From the NCBI GenBank assembly GCA_951406725.2, contig OX597830.1:15500001-15564000 (forward strand): a stretch of 64,000 bases of DNA, in the 5' to 3' direction. Of this stretch, positions 16,621 through 63,630 are shown piece after piece. Both the position numbers and the translations under genes were made by a program. The stretch's first letter is position 1, and each line of letters begins with the position of its first letter. This DNA is from Octopus vulgaris (Eukaryota). Under the pieces are notes generated by a model that was given only the letters and a program-made list of their open reading frames with translations, was not told the DNA's origin and searched no databases.

Positions 16621-16809
16621 GTTTCGCTCTCGTCTCACTCCGAACTTCTACGTAACAAAAATTTATTGCGGTAATTTTAATGAAAATAAAATCGTTTACT
16701 TGAATGTCTGTGAAAACTGAATAAGTGGGAAGTTATAACTCCGAGGATCAGCCGTAATTCACGAGTAACCAGAACTGTTGTTGCTGTTGATGATGATGCT
16801 GATGATGAT

Positions 16810-17020
16810 GTTGTTTAACCCCTGATCGAGAACACTTTTTGATCAAAGGCGTTCCAGCCGTGACTATACAACCCCTTTTTTGTATAGCAAGAACTACATT
16901 GTCTAGTGTATCCTTCTTTATTGAAAACGGTAGTAGTAATGAGGGTAATATTTGGCTGCTATTTCTTTTCGTTTCGTTTTTTTTCTTTCTTTTTTTCTAG
17001 CATGTCGAGCACTATGTATG
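16810..17020 (+). repeat. old dispersed repeat family F (gatcaaaggc.ttccagccgtgac...atttggctgctatttc)
   Basis: Related diverged copies lie at about 20320-20530, 24100-24440(-), 25070-25200(-), 29100-29290(-), 60050-60210 and 62005-62400. Class unknown. Confidence 0.6.
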
Positions 17021-18059
17021 TAGATCGAGTCTTAAGCCCTGGTTGTTGTGCAAGGAAAGGGTGTGTCAGTTCGGTGCCCAACTATGGTTAGTAGAACAAC
17101 GAGAAATAAAAGTTTAGTCTCGAGATATATTTCCAGAGGAAAAAAAAAAATCTGTATATAATAATCGTGTAGATGATAACGATGATACTTAATAAGTTGA
17201 TAGTGATGATGTCTGAACGCACACATGAAGTTGTATACAAGAAGAGATATCTGAATGCCACGTAGTGATCGGATCGGCTGTAATGTTAAAGTATGTTTAA
17301 ACTACGAAGATATAACCAGCTCCGATCAAATGCCTTGCTATTATGACATAATACAGTGGTTTGTTTCTAGGTGTTTATTGATATATTTTTTTTCTTCTTC
17401 ATTCGTGTTCATTCCTGTGATTTTTCTTTTTTTTTTACCTTCGACTTTTCGGTGTTTCCCTTTCTGTAATTTACTGACATGGAAGTGAATTAGACGGTCG
17501 TTGCAGCTGGTTGCAGTAGTAACTATAAACACGACAAAGCCAAGTTAGAGCTCGACTCTCTCCAGCTAAGCATAATTAGATTAGCTGAGACACAGAAGAC
17601 AGTGTGAAAGAGGGGAGAGAAAGGCAGAGAGTAAGAGAAAAAGGGGCGAGAAAGTGAAAGAGGTGTAACAAACACGGAGAAAAGAGAAAGAGAAAGAGAA
17701 AGTAAGAGAGAGAGAGAGGGAATGAGAGAGGGATAGAAAGAGAGAAAGAAAGAAGAGATAAAGAGGTGGGGAAAGAGAAAGAGAGATAGTAATACACAGC
17801 TAATCAGTTGAGTGTGTAAACTATCATCTAATAACGAAAACTAAAATCTAATCGACTACAAACACTACAAAAAGAGAAACGAAACTAAACGCACATACAT
17901 ACTCGCACATACACACACACGCACGCATACACGCACACACACACGTACACACAGACACATACATATAACAGTTATAGATATATAAGAAAATTTGGAGAGA
18001 GAGTGAAAGTATGGGAGAGTAAGAGAGGGAGAGATAGAGATAGAGTAGAAGCTTAGTGG

Positions 18060-18410
18060 CTTTTGTTATTTATGAAGTTGTGACACGAACGAAATCCCCA
18101 CGCCCTCGAGGGGGAACTACGTCATTGCCACACTGTGCCTACCCACGACAAATAATATTCACGTGGGGGTCGGCTGCCCAATCAGGGCAGGGGCATCAGG
18201 CTGGCGTGACGTACATAATCAGCATACCTTATATGGAGATCCTACCCCGACGCGCACGGCACCCCCTGTTCCCACCTCCACCGCCCGCACCCAGCGCGCA
18301 CCGACTACTGCTAGGGACGGGATTTGCCACCAAAGCTACTTTTTCTCTCCCACCTTACAAAACGACCGACTGAGCTCGCACGGAGGGTACCTGAGTACCA
18401 GAATTTCTGG
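18060..18410. promoter_or_regulatory. CpG-rich promoter/enhancer with an immediate-early-gene-type motif cluster
   Basis: Perfect CArG CCTTATATGG 18227-18236; CRE-like TGACGTAC 18207-18214 and TACGTCA 18118-18124; E-box CACGTG 18160-18165; CCAAT 18178-18182; GT-box CCCCACGCCC 18096-18105; GC-box 18281-18286; minus-strand TATA-like CATAAATAA 18066-18074. Confidence 0.75.
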
Positions 18411-18532
18411 TGAGTTATTCACACATCCTTTTTCTATTTTAGAAAAATACTTTGCTCTTTGATGCTTCGCTTTAATAATAATAAAAAGGACGAGAGAGAA
18501 AAATACGACCGTGTATCTCTTTGCATACTCAC

Positions 18533-18545
18533 CTGGTCCTGTCAT
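18533..18545 (-). CDS. candidate alternative start exon, coding part M-T-G-P + phase-1 nucleotide; 5'UTR probably extends to about 18770
   Basis: Minus strand reads aaaATG ACA GGA CCA G|GTGAGT: consensus donor, A at -3, unique CpG-containing upstream sequence. Confidence 0.4.
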
Positions 18546-21500
18546 TTTACATTGTATGGAGAAAGAAAACAGCGTAAAAGTGAGCAAACCGCTTCTTTAC
18601 TTCCTACATTGATTATAAACCTTATTCAAACAGCAATTCGTACTAAAAGGCATCTTCTTTAGGGTTAATTTTTCTGGTTCTTCTAATTTTTACTTCAAAT
18701 CAGCTCGACTCTTCGCCTTCTCGCCTAGAGACGTCGGCTGCATAGTTCCACTCAATACACTGTTGCTTGTTTCGCTTTTTCACTTCTGCTATTGTCTTCC
18801 TTAAAAGAAAACGAATTAGGCAAATTTTTATATCTGCAAACATTTAAAGATTCTAATGAAATATATCTTCGTTGATATATGTATTGTATATTGTGTTGAC
18901 ACTGGCCGATTCTTTAAAAAATGATATATCCGCTATGTTTTCCAAATGCGTGTGTGTGACTATATCGTGATTAGCATGCATCGAAGTCTTTTCTTTCATA
19001 CAATGTGTCTCTTCGATTAGAAAATAACTTCAAAGTGATTAGAGATATTGGTTGGATTTTATTGATATTGTAGTGGGATCTGTTCTCATATTTATATATA
19101 TGTATATATATATATATATATAAAGGCTTTGTTATCTGGTTAAAAACCTTTTAGCTTTTTTCATCATCCGAAATATTCTTTACTGTATGAGGACCTCCTT
19201 TCAGATGAAAAAGAACTACGCAAAATAAGCCACATAAAATAAAACAAACGCCTGAATGTCGGTAGAAACTAGATTTTCTTGAAAGCAATGACCAGGCTAT
19301 CTTTTAGTAGTGACCAGTCATCATGAGTTGTTGCCACTGACCACCACTGACCCTTTCTTTCCATCTTGTTAATCTGTTTGCTTTCAGCGAGGAAAATTGC
19401 AGTCTTCTGTTTTCTTTTCTGATATAAATAAATAGCTATATATATATTTTATATATTTATATTAGAATGCATTTTTAAAATAGATTCAGTTATTATTTTT
19501 TTAAAATTAATTTTTCGTTAATTAGATCGTATTTCATCACGTTGATATGGTTTGTCGTTTGGAGAGAGATATGGCTTGTCCTTACTATTGTAGCTTCTAT
19601 ATCGATTACGAATGAAAGAAACCATAAACGCAGACAGGAGTAGAGAAATATTTATTTATTTTGTTGGTCGTCAATGATGACTTATTTCACTAGAGTTGGT
19701 GATAGAGCAATGGATGGAAGCAGTAACGTCACGTGCTTGATAAATGTAAAAAAAATTATATATCTGCATAGATAGAAAAGTTTCCTAAACAAAAACAAAA
19801 TCGGTGGCCAATTAAGATATAGAAATTATAACCACTGGTTAATAATATTTCTTTATATGTGTTCAAATGACTGACAAAATTATTGCGAGGTTTTGCGGTA
19901 ATCACTTTTAGCTGTCCAGCACAACCATCTCTTCAACTAGTTACTTTTTTTTCCCCCATATTGGTGTGGCCCCGGGGTTATAAAAAGGAAATCCTGATCC
20001 AGTCTTAATAGAAGTTGTGAAAGCTACATTTTTGTGTTAATAAGAGAGATAAAGTCGGATAACCGAGGATGATCGATTTAACTTGTTTATTCCTTCCATG
20101 TGTTCATTCAGATTTCAGTATTTTTTTTCTTCTTTCTATGCATACACACACGTATGCAGACTACATACTTACACATATATGCATTTGCACAACTGCATCG
20201 CGTACACACGCACATATATCTGTGTATGCATGCATGCATGTATGTATAAAAGCTAAGGTACAAGCTATTAAAAGTGATGTCGGAAAAATTCGTTCTTATG
20301 GGATGTTGTTATTTAAATCCCCAAGTAAGCCCTGACTGAGCTGACATATGATCAAAGGTATTTAAGCTATGACCAACCCGTTTGTATATATATATATACA
20401 TATATATAACTACATAACCCAATGCGTTCTTCATTTTTTTTTTCTTATGAAAGGAGAGTGTGATTCGAGGGAATGTTTGGCTGTTATTTCTAGCCGGTCG
20501 AGCAACTACGTAGAGGAGGCTCCCTCGTTGAAGAAGAGTTGGTGGTAGCTACTAGCGACCATAAGCAGCGCTATGGCCGCCCGCTTAACACACCCTTTTT
20601 CTATGGTACTAATGACTGACATACCTTTATAGTCACACTGACGCCTAATTACCTACTTAAAACAGGCCTGTGTTTATTTCCATGTCATGACTCGTTCACT
20701 AATACGACTGAAATAAATACTTATGTCCCTCCAAGTTAACTTCCATATAGTTTTGTGTTAGTATAAAGTCTGATGACTGAAATTAGCATTGATGAGATTT
20801 TTTTCTTTTTCCCTACTGGCCACCACCGAACCATGATACCTGTTAAACTGAGCTCCCTTCGCTATCACATATTTCTTTCTTTTTTTTTTATAAATACGTA
20901 AAAAATATAGATTTCCTTTCTGATTTTTATTACTATAAGACATACGACTTGAGAAACTACTCCTTAAGGTTTTAGTATAAAAAAAAAAAGAAAAAAGATA
21001 CGATTTATATTTCTAGTGATTGAGTTTAGTAAACCACAGATTGTATCTCTTTCAGTACCTTTAGGAATTTTTTCTGAATATCAATCATTTGTTTAATTAT
21101 AATTATTATTCGATTAGCTTAGCAATTACTCATTCATTGCATTTAGTATATGCTTCGAATAACTGAAAGGTTGTGTTTGTTTGGTTTTAATCTCTTAAAT
21201 ATTTCCTATGCCGCCCGTAAAAACAACTAGACTTCTTACTAAGCGACCACACACACACATATATATATATATATATGTATCATCCATCATCATGTTTATT
21301 GAATTGTCTTAATACAGACAATGGCTAGATGTCTACACACTTTCTCTATTAACACACCGACAGTCACCATGTGTACAGACATTTGAAACTAAAATTTGCC
21401 TGTTGGTGTTGTTGCGGCTGCTGGTCTAAGGAGGTCTGTGTGTGCATATTTCTATGTTTATGTGACAATATAATATGATTGTGTTCATGTAATTAGCTTC

Positions 21501-31206: not shown

Positions 31207-32099
31207 CATGTAGTTTTTTTTTTTATCAAGCCTATATATATTTATATGCATATTGATGTATATATTTATACACAGATAAATACATATGCATTGTTATACA
31301 TAGAAATTTATTTTGCTCTATAGCAAAGACATTTGTTTACAGTTACCATACAATGTCAACACAAAGAGATATGGACACACACACACACACACATGGATGA
31401 TAACCTTTTATTTATATATATGTCTATGAAATCCACACCTAAAATCTTAACTTGGCCTCAGTCTCCAGTCGAAGGTAAAATACTTGCCGAAAGGACTGAG
31501 CTCAAACCACATGGTTTGAAAAGGAAGTTTTAACTATAGGGAAGGTGACGTCATCTGTTGTGGCTTAGCAGTTTTCGAAGTGTCACAAACACATGAACCA
31601 ACACACAGACACAAACACATGCACGTGTATGTACACACACATATACATATATACACATATACACTCATATGTATATGATGGTTATTTTATTTAGATCTCA
31701 TCTCCTTGTTCTGCTCTTAAGGCTTTGGTCAGCCCAAGGATATACATTTATCTGTGTGTAGGTATATGGTACATGTGTACATGTATATATATAAAGATGT
31801 ATATCAAAATATTATATATATGTATAATATATACATTTATGTGCTTGCTTTGGTATATATATATAGTACAAAGTAAGATAGGGATTATGAAGGTAACCCA
31901 CTATGGAATATCAGTTATCCAATATACTGCTGGTATATATATATATATATGAACACACATGTATAATGATTTATATATACATGTTTATAAGGATTTATAC
32001 CTACACACACATGTATATATCTATATCTAATATATATATATACATACATAAATACACAAGTGCAGGTATAAATGTGTGTGTATGTATATATATGTGTGT

Positions 32100-40716: not shown

Positions 40717-41613
40717 TTGAGTCATCCCATAAATAATGCAGCTTTTTCAATTGCATGAACTAAAAGTCAGAGAGAGATGGGATAAACTACCTACATCAAA
40801 AGCAGGTAGTAATTTTATCTTGTCCTTATTCTTAGTGCAAATTTTGAAGAGTGCAGTTTGATTTTAACAGTTATTTTTTCAGAGCTATAATGGAAGTGAC
40901 AAAGGAGCATATTTGGCTTATTTTGCTTTATGAGTTCAATAAAGGCAACAGTGGAATGGAAAGTGTGAGGAATATTAATGCAGTATATGGGGATCGGACA
41001 ATAAGCATAAGCCAATGTCAACAGTGGTTCCAGAAATTCTGAGTGGGAAACTGCTGCCTAAAAGACGAGCCTGTCCTAGATGATCTGTAGAGCTCGATGA
41101 GGACGTCCTGGTGGAACAAAATCCCATTGTAACTGTTGAGGAACTAGCAGAGAAGCTCAAATTTGGTCATTCAACCATTTATCGACACCTGCGCTAGGAG
41201 AAAAACAACCACCTTTGGTTTGAAGACAAAAGGTGTTTTTCTATCAGGATAATGCTCAGCCACATACAGTAAGGATGATATTCCAAAGGCTGGAGTAGTT
41301 TGAATGGGAAACGATGCCCCACCCATCATATTTGCTGGACATTGCCCCATCTGATTATCATTTATTCCGTAGTCTTCAAAATTATTTGGGCAGAAAAAAT
41401 ACAAATTCTGTAGACAAAGTCAGAACAGTACTGGAGGAGTGTTTTTCGTCACGGACAAGTGAATTTTTGGAACAGGGGCCTTGCAGAGGGATGGAAGAGC
41501 ATTGTAGAAAATGAAGAAGACTATATTTTAGATAAAAAAAAGAACTTTGTTTATCTTGATTTTGTAAAATAAAAGAAGTAGTAAAAAATCTCACTATTTA
41601 TAGGATGACCCAA
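40717..41613 (+). mobile_element. internally deleted mariner (Tc1/mariner) transposon
   Basis: TA|ttgagtcatcccataaataatgc ... cactatttataggatgacccaa|TA gives TIRs and a TA TSD, with transposase remnants inside. Confidence 0.92.
40890..41520 (+). pseudogene. mariner transposase pseudogene
   Basis: MEVTKEHIWLILLYEFNKGNS...QQWFQKF (Mos1-type N-terminal HTH) and PHPSYLLDIAPSDYHLFRSLQNYL (YSPDLAPSD motif). Stops, frameshifts and a central deletion. Confidence 0.9.
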
Positions 41614-52436: not shown

Positions 52437-52762
52437 TATATATATATACATATACACATATATATATATATACTTAATTTAATATATAACCATATACGAA
52501 AAGAAAACAATAATTTTGCAACTGCCAATGGTTTTCTTTTTGTTTCCCTTTGTTTTTTTCCATTAGAAATCATCGAAACAAGGCCATGAAGGCCACTGAT
52601 CAGAAAGGGGTTAAAAAAAGAGAAAGGATTTTTGCCAGAAGAGACTCTAAAGACACAGATTCAAGATATGCTGAAAAGATGTATGGGCGACATAGGTGCG
52701 TGCACCTGTCTACATATGTTTCTATGTGTCTGTGCGTGTGTGTGTCCGTATGTATGTATGTA

Positions 52763-62894: not shown

Positions 62895-63190
62895 GAAAGA
62901 TGGGAGAGACTGAAAGAAAGAGGGGAGGACGGGAGAGAAGGATAGATAGGAGACAGAGAGAGGGATATGTAGGAGAGAGAGAGAGAGAGAGAGAGAACGT
63001 GGGGAGTCGGAGATGGGAGAAACTGAAAGAAAGAGAGGAGGACGGGAGAGAGAGAGATAGATAGGAGACAGAGAGAGAACGTGGGGAGTCGGAGATGGGA
63101 GAAACTGAAAGAAAGAGAGGAGGACGGGAGAGATAGAGATAGATAGGAGACAGAGAGAGAGGGAGAACGTGGGGAGTCGGAGATGGGAGT
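62895..63190. repeat. purine-rich minisatellite, ~80-95 bp unit, ~3.5 copies
   Basis: gagaacgtggggagtcggagatgggag recurs at about 62993, 63075 and 63163. Confidence 0.88.
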
Positions 63191-63476: not shown

Positions 63477-63630
63477 TTCAACTGGCTTGTGATGCAATCG
63501 TCACCAGATCGCCACACGTCATTTGCAGCGAGGAAACTTTTCACTCAATATTCCAATCACTTTGAGAATTGGAATTTTAATTCCTGGTACGTGTGTGTGT
63601 AGTGTGTTGTCGATGGTGCTGCGGCACCCC
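63477..63630 (-). other. candidate upstream non-coding exon of the minus-strand locus (5' boundary uncertain)
   Basis: Consensus donor GAA|GTAAGT (plus-strand ACTTAC 63471-63476) in CpG-retaining unique sequence. Confidence 0.4.

What the first reader, a model, noticed from the sequence alone, without database searches (positions are those of the whole stretch)
18060..18410. Immediate-early-gene-like promoter module (CArG + two CRE-like sites + E-box + CCAAT)
Seen: a perfect SRF site CCTTATATGG, two TGACGTA sites, CACGTG, CCAAT and GT/GC boxes within ~200 bp of the most GC/CpG-rich unique DNA in the window, with a TATA-like element pointing along the minus strand. Established: SRF plus CREB site clusters drive activity-induced genes such as vertebrate fos and egr1. 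Inference: an activity- or cAMP-inducible promoter of the minus-strand locus, potentially useful as a cephalopod neural-activity reporter. The gene identity is not shown by this window.
Basis: partly seen in the sequence, partly recalled or inferred. Interest (0 to 1): 0.7.

Follow-up and report, generated by a model that had tools for sequence, protein, structure and literature searches.

The report
Octopus NAB gene's egr-like promoter
This motif cluster adjoins the first spliced exon of the octopus gene for NAB, a protein that brakes the activity-induced factor EGR in mammals, and it carries the same signal-response DNA words as the octopus egr promoter, so the same stimuli likely switch on both EGR and its brake (untested).

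Summary
The motifs are real: the window's only CArG box, two TGACGTA sites, CACGTG, CCAAT and GC boxes, in its most GC-rich 300 bp. Public contigs splice from a + strand donor at 18409/18410 to an exon 124 kb downstream, or to a cassette exon at 52567. These exons encode the single octopus NAB, the EGR co-repressor family. No minus-strand gene was found. The octopus egr promoter, found as a control, has the same CRE-like, CCAAT and CArG set, as do insect egr promoters (PMC6140108). Three EGR-like cores also lie here, all imperfect. Best reading: nab is likely induced directly by SRF/CREB together with egr, perhaps boosted by EGR. Described mammalian Nab promoters are EGR/ETS-driven and delayed. 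Not shown: start site, inducibility, binding, conservation. Such motif triples occur genome-wide only at chance rates. As a reporter, the egr promoter is the better candidate. The scan's earlier notes held nothing on this locus.

The parts
18095..18103 (-). EGR-like site 1 (GCGTGGGGA; 2 mismatches to GCGTGGGCG)
   Evidence: consensus from PMC2235890 passage
18118..18124 (-). distal CRE-like site TGACGTA
18140..18148 (-). EGR-like core 2 (TCGTGGGTA; CGTGGG core only, more than 2 mismatches to the consensus)
18160..18169 (+). CACGTG E-box overlapping EGR-like core 3 (ACGTGGGGG; 2 mismatches)
18178..18182 (+). CCAAT box
18207..18213 (+). proximal CRE-like site TGACGTA
18227..18236 (.). CArG box CCTTATATGG (SRF consensus CC[AT]6GG), the only one in the window
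18245..18299 (-). GC/GT-box tract (SP/KLF/EGR-like words, including GGGCGG 18281-18286)
18332..18409 (+). 3' part of nab exon 1, without an ATG; the 5' boundary is inferred, not shown
   Evidence: X20 contig covers 18332-18409; 0 ATG; spliced contigs leave the window here
18410..18415 (+). splice donor GTGAGT of nab intron 1 (124,013 bp to the NCD1 exon at G000:C17:15642423; 34,157 bp to the cassette exon)
16651..18331 (.). stretch upstream of and across the module that contigs of X1, X3, X7 and X10 cover: an upstream start, a divergent RNA, nascent RNA or DNA; strand unknown; 28 + strand ATGs
52567..52697 (+). cassette exon joined to exon 1; encodes an alternative basic N-terminus (ATG at 52586)
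   Evidence: X20 loose end maps here; matches N-termini of P0058, P0127, P0129 at 97-100%
63492..63587 (+). second alternative N-terminal coding exon of nab (5' end and promoter unknown)
   Evidence: 100% match to residues 1-32 of P0133/P0135; donor follows

Best explanation
The cluster adjoins the first spliced exon of the single octopus nab gene on the + strand and is likely its proximal promoter, likely switched on directly by SRF and CREB in the same stimuli that induce egr. Shown: gene identity, strand, splicing from 18409, and the motif set shared with octopus egr. Inferred: (1) a main start near 18,300-18,335, which puts the CArG about 100 bp and the CRE-like sites about 120 and 210 bp upstream; (2) SRF binds the CArG and CREB/ATF the TGACGTA sites, while NF-Y and SP/KLF-type factors hold the TATA-less promoter open; (3) newly made EGR would add a second push through the CGTGGG cores, as at mammalian Nab promoters; (4) the 124-kb first intron (gene about 259 kb, against about 10 kb for the egr intron) would delay mature mRNA and protein, so NAB would arrive late and damp EGR-type factors.
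For: Splice from 18409 to the NCD1 exon in X1 and X20, and to 52567 in X20, with GT..AG on the + strand. NCD1 E 1.4e-13 on that exon. NCD1 and NCD2 hits in the genome all fall in this one locus, 2 exons each. Six Octopus NAB isoforms map exon by exon at 90-100%. Only CArG and the GC/CpG peak of the window; shuffle rate 0.02% for CArG + two TGACGT. Control: octopus egr has TTACGTCA, ATTGG, CArG and TATAAAT within about 85 bp, some 200 bp before its ATG, and two more CArG boxes further up. Insect/crustacean egr-B core promoters hold two CREs, an SRE and a CCAAT box (PMC6140108 section 46). CGTGGG cores: 3 seen, 0.38 expected, reached in 24 of 5,000 shuffles. Mouse Nab1/Nab2 promoters bind and respond to Egr2 (PMC2235890 passages). 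An SRF orthologue is in the genome, 45 of 48 residues identical to the PDB SRF chain. egr1 and creb rise after training in Octopus bimaculoides (10.1101/2025.10.16.682951 abstract).
Against: No induction, binding or start-site data. Contigs of X1, X3, X7 and X10 run through the module, up to 16651, so some molecules start upstream or run the other way. Genome-wide the motif sets are no commoner than reversed controls: TGACGT-N8-20-CArG 334 vs 885, nab-type triple 7 vs 8, egr-type triple 8 vs 19, and both triple patterns were drawn from these two promoters. Neither CRE is the full palindrome. No EGR-like site is closer than 2 mismatches to the consensus, and such words occur 167 times in the window. 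No [CA]GGAA[GA] ETS word lies near the CArG and there is no + strand TATA box, unlike egr. The stretch just before the zinc fingers, where the NAB-binding R1 domain lies in vertebrates (PMC2132876 passage), is poorly conserved in 17 spiralian EGRs. Conservation in distant species could not be tested.
Confidence: 0.58

Rival explanations
1. It is the nab promoter, but a basal or developmental one: NF-Y, SP/KLF, USF and CREB/ATF give steady expression, SRF adds muscle or cytoskeletal-state control, and any stimulus response is small or comes only second-hand through EGR, as in mammals.
For: TATA-less, GC-rich anatomy; one CArG without an adjacent ETS word, against three CArG and a TATA box at egr; NAB1 is constitutive in PC12 cells and NAB2 is delayed (PMC2132876 passages); C. 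elegans MAB-10/NAB works with LIN-29 in developmental timing (search listing); 'nab' occurs 0 times in the 19 listed papers on fly activity-regulated genes; very long introns are unlike classic immediate-early genes (recalled).
Against: The CArG + TGACGTA + CCAAT set recurs at octopus egr and matches the conserved arthropod egr-B core promoter. Only 7 such nab-type triples exist in 2.8 Gb, so one lying next to the first exon of an EGR-pathway gene is hard to ascribe to chance.
Confidence: 0.27
2. The main nab start lies upstream (about 16,650-17,800) and the module sits inside a long first exon as a downstream enhancer, or the element is a bidirectional promoter that also drives a non-coding RNA leftwards.
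For: Single contigs span the module and reach the donor: X1 16824-18410, X7 16651-18410 plus 116 further letters, X10 17781-18410 plus 483 further letters. AATAAA words lie on the minus strand at 17379, 16922 and 16667.
Against: A leader from 16651 would carry 28 upstream ATGs, against 0 in 18332-18409. The GC/CpG peak and the motif order point to a start just right of the CArG, as at egr. Contigs merge overlapping molecules and show neither strand nor start.
Confidence: 0.1
3. One reading: an inducible promoter of a minus-strand protein-coding gene (fos-, egr- or nuclear-receptor-like) starting near 18040.
For: ATAAATA on the minus strand at about 18067-18073; contigs cover 16651-18060.
Against: Minus-strand ATG frames in 16630-18100 are 31-64 residues, two of the three microsatellite-derived, and only one GT[AG]AG donor word was found, at 16638. 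Pfam found only a LINE reverse transcriptase above cut-off in 149 frames from the 118 kb to the left. Pattern scans of 198 kb found no bZIP, nuclear-receptor or zinc-finger-linker word, and 2 C2H2-like words on the + strand about 150 kb away. egr lies on another contig, C2.
Confidence: 0.04

Closest known systems
Arthropod egr-B core promoter (PMC6140108, section 46) and octopus egr promoter
   Same: Two CRE-like sites, an SRE/CArG, a CCAAT box and GC-rich sequence within about 200 bp of the likely start. Octopus egr has TTACGTCA-ATTGG-CArG in 50 bp.
   Different: The gene is the co-repressor, not egr; one CArG against three in octopus egr; no TATA box; no ETS word beside the CArG; first intron 124 kb against about 10 kb; no induction or conservation data.
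Mammalian Nab1 and Nab2 promoters (PMC2235890, PMC5337695, PMC2132876; passages)
   Same: Promoter of a NAB gene with clustered EGR-like words, suggesting EGR-to-NAB feedback.
   Different: The mammalian promoters are described as driven by EGR and ETS proteins with delayed induction; 'SRF' occurs 0 times in PMC2235890. Here a perfect CArG and two CRE-like sites are present, and the EGR-like words are imperfect.
Vertebrate Egr1/fos SRE + CRE promoters (PMC5337695 passages; fos recalled)
   Same: SRF and CREB sites close to the start.
   Different: Those genes are short, TATA-containing and use ternary-complex ETS sites (recalled); nab spans about 259 kb.
NAB family proteins (Pfam PF04904 NCD1, PF04905 NCD2; PDB 2yuf)
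   Same: Both domains over cut-off: NCD1 156 bits, NCD2 175 bits; NCD2 matches 2yuf at E 1.6e-28.
   Different: Single gene with three alternative N-termini; several database isoforms are named 'inner centromere protein A' or 'centromere A'.

Membership tests
NAB co-repressor family (the linked gene) | N-terminal NCD1 SAM-like domain | tested here: met
NAB co-repressor family (the linked gene) | NCD2 domain downstream on the same strand and gene | tested here: met
NAB co-repressor family (the linked gene) | partner EGR carries an R1 domain just before the zinc fingers | tested here: inconclusive
   That stretch is poorly conserved in 17 spiralian EGRs; a conserved TP-L-S-type word lies near residue 100 instead; its likeness to vertebrate R1 is recalled, not tested
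Immediate-early (primary response) promoter | CArG box and CRE-like sites next to the first exon | tested here: met
Immediate-early (primary response) promoter | mapped transcription start just downstream of the sites | tested here: inconclusive
   Only contigs were available; they cannot show a start
Immediate-early (primary response) promoter | rapid induction without new protein synthesis | not testable with these tools
   needs stimulation time course with cycloheximide
Immediate-early (primary response) promoter | SRF and CREB occupancy | not testable with these tools
   SRF orthologue present; binding needs CUT&RUN or EMSA
Immediate-early (primary response) promoter | ETS site beside the CArG (ternary-complex SRE) | tested here: not met
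   No [CA]GGAA[GA] in 17950-18450; the distal egr CArG has CACTTCCG 4 bp away
Immediate-early (primary response) promoter | TATA box and short transcription unit | tested here: not met
   No + strand TATA[AT]A in 18000-18450; gene about 259 kb
Immediate-early (primary response) promoter | sites conserved across related species | tested here: inconclusive
   0 substitutions in 351 module bases vs 10 in 1,253 flank bases, P about 0.08; near-identical organisms only
EGR-feedback NAB promoter (mammalian type) | clustered sites that fit GCGTGGGCG | tested here: inconclusive
   3 CGTGGG cores (24 of 5,000 shuffles); 8 words at 2 mismatches vs 3.1 expected (P 0.014); none at 0-1 mismatch

The most novel reading that the evidence does not exclude
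Octopus nab is a primary-response gene fired by the same SRF/CREB module as egr, and its 124-kb first intron (259-kb gene) acts as the timer: an incoherent feed-forward loop in which the brake is launched with the accelerator and arrives hours later, replacing or adding to the EGR-driven delay of mammals. Probes to the 5' end of intron 1, the 3' exons and egr would then time-stamp neural activity in cephalopod brain.
Probability: 0.2. Interest if true: 0.7.

Novelty: new variant of a known kind. Interest (0 to 1): 0.45.

Why it matters
Octopus has almost no described activity-regulated promoters: a search for octopus + immediate early gene + egr1 + cephalopod gave 2 papers, and the one on induction never uses the words promoter, SRF or NAB. 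This work names the gene behind the module, which several database records misname as a centromere protein, and gives two defined, short promoters (nab here; egr at G000:C2:56031700-56032200) for reporter tests. If nab is directly SRF/CREB-induced, the EGR-NAB circuit is wired as feed-forward as well as feedback in a mollusc, with gene length as a possible delay. If not, it is an ordinary promoter of a known gene, now correctly assigned.

Tried and rejected
Run search: no RNA holder listed on record; the RNA labels are guesses, and I treat X1 and X20 as RNA only because they join GT..AG exons 34 and 124 kb apart. Start-site hints not counted as evidence: X20 shows no cover over 18074-18301 (one study, and a hole proves nothing), and arithmetic on X1 contig depths would put most starts between 18153 and 18312, but contig depth cannot rank parts of a gene. 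Cross-species test: X16 and X19 gave no long piece on the module, X17 was identical over 18208-18840, X20 had 11 listed substitutions in 490 intron bases and 0 in 79 exon bases, P 0.19; the genome search holds no relatives of this genome. Complex prediction of NAB NCD1 with the conserved N-terminal EGR word: no verdict, score 0.01, alignments not used. A loose end at 17396 seen in X1, X7 and X10 matched none of 21 loci; it starts at a T-rich stretch and was dropped as likely from another gene. Minus-strand gene search: 145 of the 730 frames that passed my complexity filter, plus 4 frames next to the module, were scanned with Pfam; short exons could be missed. Likeness to the insect GC-rich +30 motif at 18286-18299 is weak (9 of 14 by eye) and was not used. 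Literature blanks: searches gave 0 papers; none of the 10 listed of 22 mentions cephalopods; supplements of PMC9712504 had 0 hits for NGFI-A, NAB1, NAB2 or egr1 in 3 files, one picture file unread; bioRxiv supplements are closed and could hold nab data; PMC231349 is not held. Earlier scan notes: none near this locus; the 8 shown of 35 genome-wide concern other loci.

Full report
Observation. The CArG box CCTTATATGG (18227-18236) is the only CC[AT]6GG in the 64-kb window. TGACGTA stands at 18207 (+) and 18124 (-), 2 of 4 in the window. CACGTG (18160) and CCAAT (18178) are common words here (14 and 81). 18101-18400 is the most GC-rich 300-bp window (59%) and the richest in CpG (22). In 20,000 dinucleotide shuffles a CArG with two TGACGT arose in 0.02%; the set was chosen after the fact. 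The stretch is single-copy in the 2.8-Gb genome G000, at C17:15518040-15518420.

Which gene. I laid contigs of public runs on the region. In X1 and X20 a contig leaves the window at 18409/18410, where the sequence reads G|GTGAGT. Its loose letters map to L019:8424, behind a TAG acceptor, 124 kb to the right. A second loose end in X20 maps to window 52567, also behind an AG. Contigs of X7 and X10 also leave at 18410, with 116 and 483 further letters that the table did not print. GT..AG on the + strand fixes the direction; contigs themselves show no strand. The far exon encodes the start of an NCD1 domain (E 1.4e-13). Genome searches place both NCD1 hits and both NCD2 hits in this one locus. The next exon matches NAB proteins of 1,678 database entries, 100% identical to Octopus records. 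Six Octopus isoforms map exon by exon at 90-100% from window 52586 to an equivalent of 277038, with alternative N-terminal exons at 52586-52696 and 63492-63587 and a form that starts in the common exon. The gene is thus the single octopus nab. Of the 15 listed members of one cluster, 8 are named 'inner centromere protein A' or 'centromere A', 5 'putative uncharacterized protein' and 2 'NGFI-A-binding protein'.

No minus-strand gene. Between 16630 and 18100 the minus strand has three ATG frames of 31-64 residues and one donor-like word. Pfam on 149 frames (145 of 730 that passed a complexity filter in the 118 kb to the left, plus 4 beside the module) gave only a LINE reverse transcriptase over cut-off. 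Pattern scans over 198 kb gave no bZIP, nuclear-receptor or linker word and two C2H2-like words on the + strand about 150 kb away. Short exons could be missed.

Where transcription starts. This is not shown. One X20 contig covers 18332-18409, a stretch without ATG. Contigs of X1, X3, X7 and X10 run through the module, X7 as far as 16651; that stretch has 28 + strand ATGs. I infer a main start near 18,300-18,335 from the motif order, the GC peak and the ATG-free leader. Upstream cover may be an upstream start, a divergent RNA, nascent RNA or DNA.

Control: the egr promoter. A degenerate zinc-finger pattern (recalled motif) found 2 places, one of them octopus egr on C2 (99% to 'early growth response protein 1-B' of O. 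bimaculoides). About 10 kb upstream of its large exon lies a first exon whose ATG opens the N-terminus shared by 12 of 17 aligned spiralian EGRs. In front of it, in the direction of transcription: TTACGTCA, ATTGG, CCATATTTGG, then TATAAAT 28 bp further on; two more CArG boxes lie 300-390 bp up, one with CACTTCCG beside it. Three of the 6 CArG boxes in those 80 kb fall in this 400 bp. So egr and nab share the CRE-like + CCAAT + CArG set, with the CArG nearest the exon in both. Insect and crustacean egr-B core promoters hold two CREs, an SRE and a CCAAT box (PMC6140108, section 46 read). An SRF orthologue is in the genome.

How special is the set. Genome-wide it is at chance level: TGACGT-N8-20-CArG 334 against 885 for the reversed control, the nab-type triple 7 against 8, the egr-type triple 8 against 19. 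The argument therefore rests on position: 2 of these 15 triples adjoin the first exons of egr and nab, but the patterns were drawn from those two. Of the 15, the nab site alone has high GC (0.55; others 0.31-0.44) and CGTGGG cores, and the egr site alone has three CArG boxes nearby. I did not look for genes at the other 13.

EGR-like sites. Three CGTGGG cores lie in 18097-18167, against 0.38 expected (24 of 5,000 shuffles); 8 words are within 2 mismatches of the EGR consensus against 3.1 expected, but none is within 1, and 167 such words occur in the window. The 'E-box' overlaps the third core. Mouse Nab1 and Nab2 promoters bind Egr2 and are activated by it, Nab2 also by ETS proteins, with induction delayed behind Egr2 (PMC2235890, 12 of 39 passages). 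NAB2 induction by EGR1 is described as negative feedback (PMC5337695, 8 passages). NCD1 binds the R1 domain just before the EGR zinc fingers (PMC2132876, 12 of 24 passages). That stretch is poorly conserved in spiralian EGRs, and insect EGRs show low conservation of the repressor domain (PMC6140108 passage). The octopus partner of NAB may be EGR or Rotund/Squeeze/LIN-29-type factors (recalled; listing).

Mechanism. Shown: gene, strand, splicing, shared motif set. Inferred: a stimulus activates SRF and CREB at egr and nab alike; EGR may then reinforce nab through the CGTGGG cores; nab needs far longer to transcribe (259 kb; at a recalled 1-3 kb per minute, 1.5-4 hours), so NAB would arrive late and damp its partners. 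I give this 0.58, a basal or only EGR-driven promoter 0.27, an upstream start or bidirectional element as the main story 0.10, and a minus-strand coding gene 0.04.

Conservation could not be tested properly. Among near-identical organisms the module has 0 substitutions in 351 bases against 10 in 1,253 flank bases (P about 0.08).

What is in print. egr1 and creb are induced by habituation training in O. bimaculoides (10.1101/2025.10.16.682951; part 1 of 4 read; NAB, promoter, SRF and fos occur 0 times). egr1 is used as an activity mark in an octopus brain atlas (PMC9712504, 3 passages). I found no paper on cephalopod nab or on SRF control of a NAB promoter; the library lacks most subscription papers, and bioRxiv supplements were closed.

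Verdict. A real promoter-type module, reassigned to the + strand nab gene. It is a new variant of a known kind: immediate-early grammar on the EGR co-repressor. Interest 0.45: testable and useful for cephalopod neurobiology, but built from known parts and without functional data.

Noticed in passing
G000:C2:56031700-56032200 (L079:700-1200, minus strand): Likely octopus egr promoter: three CArG boxes, a TTACGTCA CRE-like site, CCAAT, an ETS-like word and a TATA box before the first exon. A better activity-reporter candidate than the nab module.
   Followed up: partly
window 52567-52697 and 63492-63587: Two alternative N-terminal exons of nab inside intron 1; the first has two donors (isoforms end at 52681 or 52696) and a basic, NLS-like N-terminus; the second may have its own promoter.
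   Followed up: partly
database records: Many Octopus NAB isoforms are named 'inner centromere protein A' or 'centromere A', which hides the gene in expression tables.
   Followed up: yes
window 31546-31553 and 19725-19735: A full TGACGTCA palindrome, the only one in the window, and an ACGTCACGTG word (CRE half-site overlapping an E-box), both in nab intron 1.
   Followed up: no
window 18381-19081: Contigs of X1, X3 and X20 read through the exon-1 donor into intron 1 (X20 contig 1,331 bases): nascent RNA, early termination or DNA.
   Followed up: no
L011:3909-7667 (G000:C17:15403909-15407667, +): Uninterrupted 1,253-residue frame with reverse transcriptase (PF00078) of a LINE, about 110 kb left of the module.
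   Followed up: no
L071:7000-7320 (+): Two C2H2-like words in one frame next to a microsatellite, about 150 kb left of the module.
   Followed up: no
L069:8566-9469 and window 41171-41597: Mariner/Tc1-like transposase fragments (recognised by eye from translations; not scanned).
   Followed up: no
window 62976-63189: 82-bp tandem repeat (2.5 copies) with an ACGTGGGGAG word in each unit, 300-500 bp before the alternative exon at 63492.
   Followed up: no
P0139 residues 99-109 (alignment A1 columns 201-212): Conserved TP-L-S-type word in the N-terminal part of spiralian EGRs, a candidate relocated NAB-binding motif.
   Followed up: partly
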